A stretch of 64,000 nucleotides of DNA from Octopus vulgaris (taxonomy: Eukaryota). This document shows, piece by piece, positions 25,936-64,000 of this stretch. The stretch spans positions 147,374,001 to 147,438,000 of the forward strand of contig OX597818.1 of the NCBI GenBank assembly GCA_951406725.2, written 5' to 3'. The first letter of the stretch is position 1; each line of letters starts with the position of its first letter. A model generated the notes under the pieces. It did not search any database. It had not been told where the DNA came from and saw nothing but the letters and a program-made list of their open reading frames with translations. The position numbers and the translations under genes are program-made.

Positions 25936-26639
25936 ACTTTACATGATTACGATCTTACGTTGATTTTCAAGTCTTTCTCAGTTATCTCCCTTTAGGCTGT
26001 TTCCAAAGTTTTATTTTCGTTTCTTTATTATCAATTTTATTCGCGTCTCTATCTTAGTAGAAATAAATGGATAAATACATTAAAGTACATAAACAAACGG
26101 CAGCAAAACCGTTCAGAAATTAAATAAAACTGACATATTTTATAATATATATATTATACATACAAATTAACACTTTACAGTATACTTATATACAAACATA
26201 CATCTATACATCGATCCATTTGCTTTCATTTCTGTGTCTGTGTGCGCGCGCATGTGTGAGAGAGTGTTTCCAGGTCATTGCTTGTGCGTGTGTCCGTGTG
26301 TGTGTGTGTGTGTGTGTGTGTGTGTGTGTGTGTGTGTGTCCGTGTGTGTTTGTGAGTGAGTGAGTGTTTAACTGTGTGTTTTCATTTCTGTGTGAGTTTG
26401 TGAGAGTGTGTGTTCGTGTTTTCATTTCTGTGTGTGTATTTGTTTGTGTGTGTGTGCGACAATTACAGCTATAGCAAACACTTTGACCAGTTCTAACATA
26501 CCCACATTTTCAGATCACTAACTTCTAAATCAAAAGAAATTCAATTTATTGGATCTTTAGCGACAATGTATTATTTTACACCGGTTGTGAAGCAGTGATG
26601 AGGGAGAAACTCAAAGACACACACATAGATTTACATATA

Positions 26640-27303
26640 TACATACATATACATTTATATCTATAGAAATACATCTATACATATACAGCTATACATATAC
26701 ATGTATAGATATACATGTATATCTATACATGTTATATATATATATATATATATATATATATATATATATATATATATATATATATATATATATATATATA
26801 TATATATATATATATATATATATATATATATATATATATATATATATATATATATATATATATATATATAATATATATATATATATATATATATATATAT
26901 ATATATATATATATATATATATATACATCCATATATATATATATATATATATATATATATATATATATATATATATATATATATATATATATATATATAT
27001 ATATATATATATATATATATATATATATATATATATATATATATATACACATCCATATATATATATATATATATATATATATACACATCCATATATATAT
27101 ATATATATATATATATATATATACACATCCATATATATATATATATATATATATATATATATATATATATATATATATATATATATATATATATATATAT
27201 ATATATATATATATATATATATATATATATATATATATATATATATATATATATATACCCACATATATATATATATATATATATATATATGGATGTGTAT
27301 ATA
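26640..27303. repeat. Long (TA)n tract punctuated by CACATCC
   Basis: Directly visible. Confidence 0.95.
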
Positions 27304-30300
27304 TAACTTAGAATAACTTAGAAAGGTTTTGGCCAGTATTGGCCCAGGCCATGTCTAACTTAATAGCACCACCTGGTGAAGTCTTTCAGTTCAGGATTTG
27401 GGCATCAAGGCCCATTCGAGCAGAGAGTTATTGTTTGCGGAGACATATCCGGGTGTGGGTGGTTTGTCCGAGACTGTTTGAAGGAATTTGTCCAAAGACT
27501 TCTTGAATTTTGTGTGGTCAGTTTCTTTTTTGATGTGCCCTGGTGTAATGTTGAAGAGAGCAGGTCCAATTGAGGTGAAATAGTTGTGCCGTATTGTCGT
27601 TATGTGATGCGATTTAGATTTTTGTTGTGGACGGATGGCACGTGGTCCAAGCCTTGGATGCATTTTGAAGGTGATGCCAACATCATTCGGACAGTGCTGG
27701 TGGAATATTTTCCACATCATACAGATAATGTAGCGTTCACGGCGTCGTTGGAGTGAATACAATTTCAGCTTCTCTAGTCTACCCCAGTAGTCAAGGTCTG
27801 ACATGCCATCTATCTTTTTTGTGATTGACCTTTGGGGAGCTTCAATTCTCAATAATTTGTTTTGTGTAGGGAGACCACAGTGGACAGCAGTATTCAAGGT
27901 GGGGTCGGGCAAAAGTGGAGAAGAGAAGGATAATAGCGTGGGAATCTCTCGACTGGAAGGTTCTGAGAATCCAGGAACACATTCTGCGGGCCATGTCAAC
28001 TTTGCTGCTTATATGTGTAGCCCAGCTTATGTTGTTGTCCACTGTTACTCCCAGGTCTCTGATGTTGTTGGATGCCATGAGAATTTCTCCAGAAGGAAGA
28101 GAGTATGGGAGTTTCAGAGCGTCCTCCCTTCCAAAGTGGATCAGTTCAAATTTGTCTTCATTTAGCAACATGTTATTCTTTTCCGCCCATTGGACAACAG
28201 CCAGTAGGTCTGACTGAAGGTTTATTCGGTCATCCACGCCATTGATGACCTTCTGGAGCTTGGAGTCATCAGCGAAGGTTCTGATGTTACTGTGTTTGAT
28301 GGTGTCAGTAATATCATTTATGTAGATGATGAAGAGAAGTGGGCCCAACACAGTGCCTTGTGGGACACCACTGCTGACTTTGGCTGGGCTGGATTTGACT
28401 CCTTCGACTACAACATGTTGGGTTCTGTTAGACAGGAAGCACTTGATCCACTGTAGCAGCTTTCCAGTGACACAAATATTGGACAGCTTTCTGAAAAGGA
28501 TCTTATGATCAAACCTGTCAAAGGCCTTGCTGAAATCAAGGTAGATGACATCAGTGTTGGAACCCTCTCCCAAGGCTCTCAAAATGTCATCAAAATGATG
28601 CAGTAGCTGCGTCAGGCAATCCCTTCCATTACGGAATCCATGCTGGTTGGAGTTCAGCATATCATGACTCTCAAGGAAGTGAGTCATACGCGATCTCAGC
28701 ACTCTCTCAAATACCATAATGATATGAGAGGTGAGTGAGATTGGACGGTAATTCACGGCAAGCGATTTGTTTCCTTTTTTGAAAACTGGGAATACAAACT
28801 GGGATAGGTCTTCTGGTATATATCCAGCATCCAGTGAGTTCCGCCACAGATTGGCTCGAGTGGGTTCAAGTTGGTGTTGACACATCTTCAAGACACAAGC
28901 AGGGAACCTATCGGGACCTACTGCTGAATTATGCTTCATTTCCTTTATTGCTGCTAAGACATCAGGAGCGCCAAATGTTATGTCTGATAAAGTGTATTGG
29001 GGAGTAACATCACTGATACAGCCCAGATCAGTCATATCAGGATTGCTGAAAACAGAGCAATATTGTTTCTGCAATATCTCTCCCATGGTTTTGGCATTGT
29101 CTTGAAGAGTACCATTTTCATCAATCAGAGGGCCAACAGTAGAACCAGTGACTCTGTGTTTTTTTGCAAATGAAAAGAACACTTTGGGATTGAGTTTGAT
29201 CTTCTCAATGGCCCAGGCCTCTTCAGCTCTTCTCTGACTATTGATGATAGACATCATGTTGTTTTGGAGTTTATGTTTTTTAATCTCTAGCGACGAGATG
29301 GCAGTCAGGTTGGTGTGTTGCTGTTGACAGTATTTCAGCATGTTGATCTTTTTGTTGATTCTTTTAATTTTCCTTATGAGAGATTTTCTATTTCTAGGGA
29401 TTCGACACTTAGATTTGTTTGCAGATCTTAATGGGGTGTGTCTTGCACATATGTTCATGATGGTGTCTACAAGTGACTGCCAGGACTTTTTGATGTTAGT
29501 GGGTGTGTATGTGTGCGTGAAGGACCAATCGATTTGTGCAAGATCATTATTGATCGCTTCCCAGTTTGCATTGTGGAAATCCATAGTGTCAAATTGATGA
29601 ACAGGAGGGATGACATTTGTTTTGCATTTTGGCCAGTGAAATCTCAGATCACAGAGAACCATGTCATGGTCGGAGAGTAAAGTTTTCTCCACTGCAATAT
29701 TGTGGATAGTATCAGTGTGATTGCTGAAAATTAAGTCTAAGACGTTTTTGTGACATCTCGTTGGTTCGAGTACCAGTTGGGACAAGAAGAAGTCATCCAT
29801 GAAGTCAAGAAGCGATTCCACTGCCTTCCTGTCAGGGGTTGAGAGAGAAGAACCTGGCGGCAGACTGTTTGTAGACCAGTCAACCCCGGGAAGGTTGAAG
29901 TCTCCCATCATTAAAATGTTGTCAGGTTGACACTGCTGAATGAAACACTTTATGCTGTTGAGGCATTCCTTGAAGCATGGTAGGGGCGTTTGGGGTGGTC
30001 TGTAGAGCCCAACTACTGTTAAGTTGTTGGTTTGACTGAATACAGCGACTGCTTCGCAGTATCCATTCGAAAATATGTTCATGGCTTCTGTTGAGAATGA
30101 ATCATGGACATAAATGGCAGTCCCACCCTTTCTTCTGCCAGCACGATCAGCACGAATGGTTTTGAAATTTTTAACTTTCACCTCGGCTTCCAAGTGGAGG
30201 TCACTAAGATGGGTTTCAGTGAGGACGAAGAAAGGGATGTGGTTTGGATGGGCATCGACCCAGTCCTCCAGGAATCTTATCTTCCATTTTTGTGTATTGG

Positions 30301-62147: not shown

Positions 62148-62876
62148 ATATGTATATATATATATATATATAGTTGAAATATGTTACAAAAGGAAAATAT
62201 AAAATACACGTGAAAATTTAAGGGGAGAATAACAAAAAATCAACGAAAATGCACATTATAAATAAAAAAGAAAAAGCTTTTTATGAAAGGTAACGACAGA
62301 TATATACTTTTAGATGGGATGAGGTAATAATAAAAGTCATTATTATGAGATGATTAAAAAGTCAGAAAGCAAAGCATACCATGGTTTCGTCATAAGCTAT
62401 TCTTCCCCCCCATATATATATATATATATATATATATATATATATATATATATATATATATATATATATATATATATATATATATATATATATATATATA
62501 TATATATATATATATATATATATATATATATATATATATATATATATATATATACGTATATTATATGATATATATATATATATATATATATATATATATA
62601 TATATACTATGTATATAACTACGTATATTATATGCATATATATATATGCATACATATGCATTCAGATCTAGTCAAGTAATTTGCCTCATTTTTTTGTTAA
62701 ATCTAGTTGGAACCGATAGATAAGAGAAAATCATTTGGTCATTATATTTGATTGACTGTAGTTGTTGATGTTTTCGTAGAAGCTATTGGCTTGAAGCAGG
62801 GTTAGGTGTTTATGTAGTTTTCTGATGGTAGTAGGGACAAACAGAGGCACACAATCGTATACATATATACACTTGT

Positions 62877-63880
62877 GTACGACGGGCCTTTTTCAGTTTC
62901 CGATACGAAATCGAATCATAAGGATTTAGTCGACCCGGGACGATAGAAGAAAACTCTTGTCTAAGCTGCCACGCGGTAGGACTGCACCAGGAACCGTGTG
63001 GTTGGTAAACAGGCAAGCAGGCAACCCCCCACTGAGATATATTTACACACACACACACACACACACACACACACACACACACACACACACACACACACAC
63101 ACACACACACATATATATATATATATATATATATATATATATATATATTTATTGATAGGCGTAGGAATGGCTGTGTGATAAGTAGCTTCCCTACGAAACG
63201 CAGTGCTCTTGGTTCAGTCCCACTGCATGGTATCTTGGGCTAGTGTCTTCTACTATAGACTCGTGCCGACCAATCCTTGTGAGTAGAATTGATAGGCGGA
63301 ACATACACACACACACACACACATTCACACTCACACAAACATATATATACATATATGTGTGTGTGTATGGGGCTATGTATATATATATATATATATATAT
63401 ATATATATACATACACGTTTGTATGTCTGTTTATCCCTCCAACACCGCTTGACAACCGATGCTGGTGTGTTCATGTCTCCGTAACTTAGCGTTTCGTCAA
63501 AAGAGAAAATAGATTAAATACTAGGCCTACAAAAAATAAGTATTGGGTTCGAATTTCGCGAATAAAGGCGCTGCTGCGGCATGGAATATATATATGTATA
63601 GTTATATATATATATATATATATGTGTGTGTGTGTGTGTGTGTGTGTGTGTGTGTGTGTGTGTGTATATATATGTGTGTGTGTGTGTGTTTGTAATGTCT
63701 GTTTATTTCTCGAACATCGTTGGACAACGGATGCTGGTGTGTACAATTCCCCGAACTTAGCGGTTCGGGAAAAGGGACCGATAGTTTAAATACTAGGCCT
63801 ACAAAGTATAAGTCCTGGGGTCGATTTGCACGAATAAAGGCATTGCTCCACTATGGCTGCAGTCAAATAATTGAAAAATT
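62877..63880. mobile_element. SINE family 2 cluster (minus head, full plus copy, extra 3' half)
   Basis: Paralogous to 49940-50890. Confidence 0.85.
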
Positions 63881-64000
63881 AAGTGTGTAAAACAGAAAAT
63901 AACCAGAAAAGTTTATATTCTCTTAACTACATCAGTAAGGGAGATAACTGAAAATCAACTTTTAGAGTTACTTCCCTTGACATATTAATGAAAGACATGA

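What the first reader, a model, noticed from the sequence alone, without database searches (positions are those of the whole stretch)
26200..64000. Ancient tandem unit inflated by nested insertions into (TA)n
Seen: block 26200-26580 is paralogous to 46360-46790. A SINE 3' half plus a ~330-bp block recurs at ~43990, 50700, 57135 and 63690. The SINE that is contiguous at 50175-50595 appears split in two other copies. In 36178...43989 the halves are separated by ~7.6 kb (Penelope, hAT with its MITE and SINE, and LINE A). In 47208...57135 they are separated by ~9.8 kb. Almost every LINE, Penelope and Helitron junction lies in (TA)n. Inference: a unit of roughly 2 kb grew to 11-18 kb because SINE-borne (TA)n tracts act as landing pads. 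Each insertion leaves TA on both sides for the next one, so intron and genome growth reinforces itself.
Basis: partly seen in the sequence, partly recalled or inferred. Interest (0 to 1): 0.7.

Follow-up and report, generated by a model that had tools for sequence, protein, structure and literature searches.

The report
TA tracts as shared transposon sinks
In this octopus-like genome, a roughly 2-kb repeated unit has swollen to 16-20 kb because several unrelated jumping genes landed in TA microsatellites that were already there, likely because each family's own targeting rule is met by TA repeats; whether this feeds on itself is untested.

Summary
Mostly real, partly misread. The window lies 111 kb from a contig end, in a duplicated block; a 96.8%-identical copy on another contig supplies empty sites. 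There the SINE halves 36175/43989 are only 413 bp apart. All 12 young insertions of 26200-64000 (13.7 kb: LINEs, Penelope, hAT, Helitron, fragments) sit in TA-type tracts that already existed and make up 12% of the older sequence. Excising elements leaves three head-to-tail units of 1.4-2.8 kb, about 83% alike. Corrections: the '50700 unit' and its intact SINE are a recent 96-99% copy from a non-TA rearrangement; the blocks recur on 22 contigs; no host gene or intron was found. Genome-wide, TA targeting is strong (Penelope 28 of 29, LINE 5' ends 21 of 40, background 5%), but only 3 of 130 TA junction flanks lie inside this SINE. Self-reinforcement has weak support only. Best reading: family-specific preferences converge on (TA)n. 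Microsatellite targeting is known for single families; this scan already noted Penelope/TA targeting elsewhere in this genome. I found no paper on the multi-family convergence in octopus.

The parts
26200..46224 (+). Unit 1 of the duplicon repeat: 20.0 kb now, 2.8 kb after excision with microsatellites capped
   Evidence: orthologous span in C20 about 7.7 kb
46225..62647 (+). Unit 2: 16.4 kb now, 1.9 kb after excision
62648..64000 (+). Unit 3 (runs on to about 64226): intact SINE, second SINE 3' half, block A
26457..26580 (+). Block B, short copy (non-coding)
26578..26640 (-). Remnant of a reverse SINE 3' half bordering the first TA tract
   Evidence: alignment score 43 against a best of 23 in 500 shuffles
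27291..31501 (-). LINE B (endonuclease + RT), young, in TA; absent from C20
31536..32358 (.). 240-bp fragment and a LINE B-like 3' fragment, same TA tract; absent from C20
33155..36039 (+). Older LINE A relative, TA on both sides; shared with C20
36094..36155 (.). 62-bp fragment in the TA tract at the SINE 5' edge; absent from C20
36175..36329 (+). SINE copy 1, 5' half
   Evidence: 413 bp from its 3' half in C20, about 350 bp in C31
36625..39560 (+). Penelope-like element: RT, CX4CXXC linker, C-terminal GIY-YIG, inverted ends
39949..41946 (.). Non-autonomous hAT-like element with 8-bp duplication ATACATAC; MITE (40113-40364) and SINE (40581-40905) came in as cargo
   Evidence: 6 of 8 other copies examined carry both, one lacks the SINE
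42080..43909 (+). 5'-truncated LINE A, young, in TA
43989..44535 (+). SINE copy 1, 3' half, plus block A
44951..45945 (-). Reverse SINE split in its internal TA by a Helitron-like element (45271-45650) and a 68-bp piece; empty site 87 bp in C20
46630..47030 (+). Block B, long copy; no conserved reading frame
47206..47356 (+). SINE copy 2, 5' half
47468..55343 (+). LINE A inside SINE copy 2; one contiguous element in C20
48553..52814 (+). Recent rearrangement copy of 61527-65835 plus 126 bp of LINE A; holds the '50175' SINE and '50700' unit; both junctions have 3-bp microhomology and no TA
55437..56980 (.). LINE B-like tail and a 558-bp perfect inverted pair with flank, in the SINE-internal TA; absent from C20 and C18
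57135..57680 (+). SINE copy 2, 3' half, plus block A
57991..62147 (+). RTE-type LINE in the TA/TATG tract behind block A (not SINE-internal); shared with C20
   Evidence: clade name from recall, no tree made

Best explanation
Twelve young transposon pieces in this duplicated block sit in TA microsatellites that the empty paralog shows were already there, likely because the separate targeting rules of several unrelated families are all satisfied by (TA)n. Shown: an old unit of about 2 kb (block B, reverse SINE remnant, TA, forward SINE with internal TA/TG, block A, TA) was multiplied head to tail and then spread in large blocks, mostly to contig ends and contig C31; each copy then took up different elements in the same few tracts. 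Inferred: Penelope cuts at (TA)n through its endonuclease/linker; the RTE and the two LINEs cut AT-rich DNA and prime on matching 3' repeats; the hAT and Helitron use short AT-rich consensus sites that (TA)n offers at every second base. An insertion splits a tract without destroying it, so the site stays usable. The SINE is one source of tracts, dominant here because its internal tracts have grown to 200-400 bp, but minor genome-wide.
For: Empty sites. 12 of 12 young insertions in TA-type tracts that are 12.3% of the older sequence (P about 1e-11 if independent; 5e-4 when counted by site with two non-TA cargo elements against it). Other paralogs have other elements in the same tracts: Helitron in C13, an inverted element in C18, a 200-bp array in several C31 copies, LINE B in C2. 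Genome-wide strict TA flanks against 4.9% background: Penelope 28 of 29; LINE B 3' 27 of 29, 5' 12 of 20; LINE A 3' 20 of 29, 5' 9 of 20; hAT 14 of 29; Helitron 8 of 29. Family-specific flavour: RTE 5' ends lie in (TATG)n or TA in 25 of 27 but strict TA in 5; hAT duplications follow an ATATATAT-like consensus and the excess shrinks to P=0.046 against RTnnnnAY sites; Helitron excess shrinks to P=0.04 against AT sites. Flanking TA runs are not longer than random points in tracts, except for Penelope.
Against: No cleavage or priming step was tested. 3' TA could partly be made by the element (LINE B loci L188, L199 have TA only at the 3' side). No empty-site paralog was found for the LINE A in SINE copy 2 (three close copies). 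Several of the 12 pieces may have arrived together (8-10 events). Loci are the 29 best hits per family, not a random draw; two LINE B loci (L208, L209) are one insertion duplicated. Background is 20 hand-picked 10-kb stretches with 0-10% TA. Upstream of the finding, 3 of 5 paralog-specific insertions are not in microsatellites (8541, 20059, 24617).
Confidence: 0.62

Rival explanations
1. Long pure (TA)n tracts form cruciforms that host nucleases cut, and any active element is captured at these breaks regardless of its own enzyme.
For: Six families of four chemistries share the bias. AT/TA repeats form cruciforms cut by Mus81 in yeast (PMC12972899, abstract seen). Many inserts are short fragments without clear target duplications. 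The longest tract (413 bp) took four pieces.
Against: LINE, hAT and Helitron flanks are not longer than expected; many LINE B sites are interrupted TA/TATG mixes; RTE prefers TATG; hAT has a normal 8-bp duplication; the two rearrangement breakpoints are not in TA.
Confidence: 0.2
2. One reading: SINE-borne tracts seed the process and each insertion enlarges the target, so growth is self-accelerating.
For: 11 of 12 young pieces are in SINE-internal tracts, about half of local TA. Hit sites hold 1.6-4.2 times the microsatellite of the empty site; 10 unhit sites 0.4-3.5 (P=0.02; one site with ratio 61/0 left out). 12 pieces fall in 5 of 18 tracts (P=0.02). 2 of 29 young SINEs already carry a foreign insert in the 48-bp internal tract, none in the 190-bp 3' half.
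Against: Clustering is not significant at 8-10 events (P=0.08-0.28). Only 3 of 130 TA flanks genome-wide are SINE-internal, against 6% of TA bases. Longer tracts may be cause rather than result, and assembled TA lengths are uncertain.
Confidence: 0.13
3. Assembly misjoins at long TA tracts create the nesting.
For: Tracts exceed 100 bp and the region is multi-copy; short-read contigs could not bridge the one junction tried (inconclusive).
Against: Flanks are colinear with C20 on both sides of each insert; element ends are exact across 29 loci; both rearrangement junctions recur on other contigs.
Confidence: 0.05

Closest known systems
Microsatellite-biased Penelope-like elements (Neptune, Nematis, Naiad; Craig et al. 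2021, PMC8557442, passages seen)
   Same: (TA)n bias, inverted ends, CX2-5CxxC linker before a GIY-YIG domain.
   Different: Here the bias is shared with endonuclease-type LINEs, an RTE-type element and DNA transposons; clade of this copy not placed on a tree.
TA-targeting plant DNA transposons MuTAnT, TAFT, Micron (PMC4486113, passages seen)
   Same: Insertion into pre-existing (TA)n, empty alleles with TA, 'safe haven' idea.
   Different: Single families in plants; no stacking of several orders in one tract described in the passages seen.
3'-repeat pairing of RTE, CR1 and L2 LINEs with the target (PMC6007223, passages seen)
   Same: RTE-type element ends and lands in the same microsatellite type.
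   Different: There the overlap is one to several bases; here whole tracts flank both sides.
Subtelomeric segmental duplications (recalled general knowledge; listing only)
   Same: Multi-copy blocks, 13 of 21 clusters within 1 Mb of a contig end, microhomology rearrangements.
   Different: Half the block A hits lie on one 12-Mb contig (C31); no telomere array at the C5 or C18 end.

Membership tests
EN+ Penelope-like element (36625-39560) | RT followed by C-terminal GIY-YIG endonuclease | tested here: met
   Pfam RVT_1 and GIY-YIG
EN+ Penelope-like element (36625-39560) | Tandem or inverted pseudo-LTR ends | tested here: met
   36625-36873 inverted against 39356-39560
Neptune/Nematis-type PLE | CX2-5CxxC linker; RT tree position | tested here: inconclusive
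   Linker present; no tree made
Microsatellite-targeting elements | Target tract exists before insertion | tested here: met
   Empty sites in C20 and C31 for the window copies; not tested for dispersed copies
Microsatellite-targeting elements | Enrichment over genome background at both ends | tested here: met
   LINE A and B both ends; Penelope and RTE one end only; hAT and Helitron weak after conditioning
Microsatellite-targeting elements | Enzyme cuts the repeat in vitro | not testable with these tools
   No assay possible
CR1-group LINE (LINE A, LINE B) | APE endonuclease + RT; clade by RT tree | tested here: inconclusive
   Domains met; clade name recalled, no tree
hAT non-autonomous element | Short terminal repeats and 8-bp target duplication | tested here: met
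   Ends CAGTGGCG / CGCCCCTG and ATACATAC on both sides; no transposase
Locus-specific ancient tandem array | Units confined to one locus | tested here: not met
   80 scored hits on 22 contigs
Subtelomeric duplicon | Copies concentrated at chromosome ends, next to telomere arrays | tested here: inconclusive
   13 of 21 clusters near ends (C31 and 8 clusters of unknown contig length left out); no array at two ends read
Tandem gene cluster | Conserved exon or RNA gene in the unit | tested here: not met
   Only TE domains, no Rfam hit, frameshifting indels in block B

The most novel reading that the evidence does not exclude
(TA)n is a universal, self-renewing sink in the octopus genome: LINEs, RTE, Penelope, hAT, Helitron and SINEs all pour into it, each insertion leaves more TA than it found, and the most abundant SINE spreads fresh tracts, so genome growth is autocatalytic and steered away from genes.
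Probability: 0.25. Interest if true: 0.65.

Novelty: new variant of a known kind. Interest (0 to 1): 0.4.

Why it matters
If several transposon orders converge on one microsatellite, growth of a large cephalopod genome would be concentrated in about 3% of its DNA (TA share 3.3% in 200 kb). Repeat annotations that set simple repeats aside (PMC8967140, passages seen) would not see this, and split SINEs would be double-counted. The multi-copy block is a natural replicate experiment: dozens of paralogs of one target sequence with independent insertions allow insertion rate to be measured against tract length.

Tried and rejected
Gene in the unit: rejected; run search listed no RNA holder, which says nothing on expression. 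Short-read contigs of four runs over the 52686 junction: none listed bridges it, inconclusive. LINE A 5' query hit an internal position, since the window copy is truncated; 5 of 26 dispersed loci showed their truncation within view, all at TA/GT repeats, and these were not added to the counts. hAT right ends were out of reach of the loci. MITE and SINE inside the hAT first counted as non-TA insertions, then found to be cargo. Simple hammerhead pattern: 1 match, chance level; long-stem forms not tested. Protein atlas gave no result for LINE A, so clade stays unplaced. Ten paper searches showed no paper on multi-family TA targeting in octopus; the library lacks most subscription journals and no supplements were read.

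Full report
Setting. The window is G000:C5:147374001-147438000 in a 2.8-Gb genome, 111 kb from the contig end. The repeats look octopus-like; the SINE family name (OR type) is recalled and was not tested. Only transposon domains were found in 26200-64000 and no Rfam family in the window.

Observation. Self-BLAST confirms the recurring blocks and coordinates. Block A copies at 44194, 57335 and 63889 are 82.5-84.8% alike, but the 50900 copy is 96.7% identical to the 63889 copy.

The blocks are not local. Block A gave 40 scored hits of 208 candidates, block B 40 of 390. Together the 80 hits fall on 22 contigs in 45 clusters, 16 on C31; of 21 other clusters with known contig length 13 lie within 1 Mb of an end; 8 clusters of unknown contig length were left out. 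They travel together as a composite, in changing order and orientation, so this is a duplicon family, not a simple transposon.

Empty sites. C20:9.50-9.58 Mb is colinear with the window and beyond (49.7 kb aligned, 96.8%). There, and in C31, the SINE halves at 36175 and 43989 are joined by 350-410 bp of microsatellite: the split of copy 1 is proven. For copy 2, C20 has one contiguous LINE A and a 200-bp element between the halves; no copy without the LINE A was found. Trees put the 5' halves of units 1-3 in one clade (0.994) and the 3' halves in one clade (0.998) apart from 11 random and 3-4 nearby SINEs, so the halves descend from one resident insertion. Twelve pieces (13,680 bp) are present in the window and absent from C20; all lie in TA-type tracts, which are 12.3% of the C20 span. 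C20 has its own three inserts in the span, also in such tracts. The MITE and SINE in the hAT are cargo. Other paralogs carry other elements in the same tracts. Cutting out young, shared and rearranged parts leaves units of 2,761, 1,898 and 1,391 bp with repeats capped, about 79-82% alike. With the rate of 0.0036 per million years used in PMC13282606 (parts 1-2 of 3 read), the units would be some 25-30 and the C5/C20 split some 4-5 million years old; this is inference and gene conversion would shorten it.

The fourth unit. 48553-52814 is absent from C20. Its parts match 61530-62152 (99.0%) and 64465-65832 (98.4%). Both junctions show 3-bp microhomology and no TA; the first recurs in C31 and C13, the second in C18. 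It is a recent duplication with deletion, 4.3 kb of the growth.

Genome-wide test. For each family the 29 best dispersed loci (27 for RTE) were scored for (TA)5 within 35 bp of the junction; background 4.9% from 20 stretches of 10 kb. Penelope end 28 of 29; LINE B 3' 27 of 29 and 5' 12 of 20; LINE A 3' 20 of 29 and 5' 9 of 20 (for each LINE, 8 loci ran off the fetched DNA and 1 with an internal deletion was dropped at the 5' side); hAT 14 of 29; Helitron 8 of 29; RTE 5 of 27 strict but 25 of 27 with TATG or TA. Against sites matching a short consensus the LINE and Penelope excess stays, while hAT (P=0.046) and Helitron (P=0.04) become marginal. Flanking runs are longer than expected only for Penelope.

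SINE-borne? Locally yes: 11 of 12 pieces, counting the tract bordered by a SINE remnant. Genome-wide no: 3 of 130 TA flanks are SINE-internal, 7 were too short to class, against 392 of 6,418 TA bases and 16 of 152 tracts in random DNA (small library). Ordinary SINE tracts have medians of 37-48 bp; 2 of 29 young SINEs have a clear foreign insert there, a third has a doubled head, and none has an insert in the 3' half.

Self-reinforcing? Hit sites hold more microsatellite than empty sites (1.6-4.2 times; unhit 0.4-3.5; P=0.02), and 12 pieces share 5 of 18 tracts (P=0.02), but at 8-10 events the clustering is not significant. Direction of cause is open.

Comparison. (TA)n bias is published for Penelope-like elements (PMC8557442, passages) and plant DNA transposons (PMC4486113, passages), 3'-repeat pairing for RTE/CR1/L2 (PMC6007223, passages), cruciform cleavage for AT repeats (PMC12972899, abstract). 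Passages searched in three cephalopod or shrimp papers and the text of PMC13282606 read do not describe this convergence in octopus. Earlier notes of this scan report Penelope ends in TA tracts elsewhere in this genome. Verdict: real, built from known parts, new as a multi-family pattern with direct empty-site proof; interest 0.4.

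Noticed in passing
window 11555-15795: 21-bp tandem repeat, 202 copies, open in several frames (unit reads QRGNDSG); nearly absent from the C20 paralog, so recently expanded. No Pfam family of note.
   Followed up: partly
window 54727-54744: Three telomere-type CCCTAA units inside LINE A, possibly a healed break.
   Followed up: no
window 43858-43908 and SINE 3' end: The SINE shares its last 50 bases with LINE A, not LINE B, so LINE A is its likely driver.
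   Followed up: partly
L076, L079, L080, L083-L085 (C31): Arrays of a 200-bp unit separated by TA inside the unit-3 SINE tract, with inversions; a single related unit sits in the C20 copy of SINE 2.
   Followed up: no
G000:C31: A 12-Mb contig holding 27 of 80 duplicon hits; may be a repeat-rich small chromosome or pooled chromosome ends.
   Followed up: no
window 55530-56814: 558-bp arms, 99.6% identical inverted pair; identity not established, perhaps Penelope-derived.
   Followed up: partly
window 1053-4801 and 17381-17752: RT with zf-RVT (L1/Tx1-like, recalled) and a DUF7083 fragment.
   Followed up: no
L021-L026, about 30-45 kb past the window: Compact, rearranged array of blocks B and A at 3-6 kb spacing.
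   Followed up: partly
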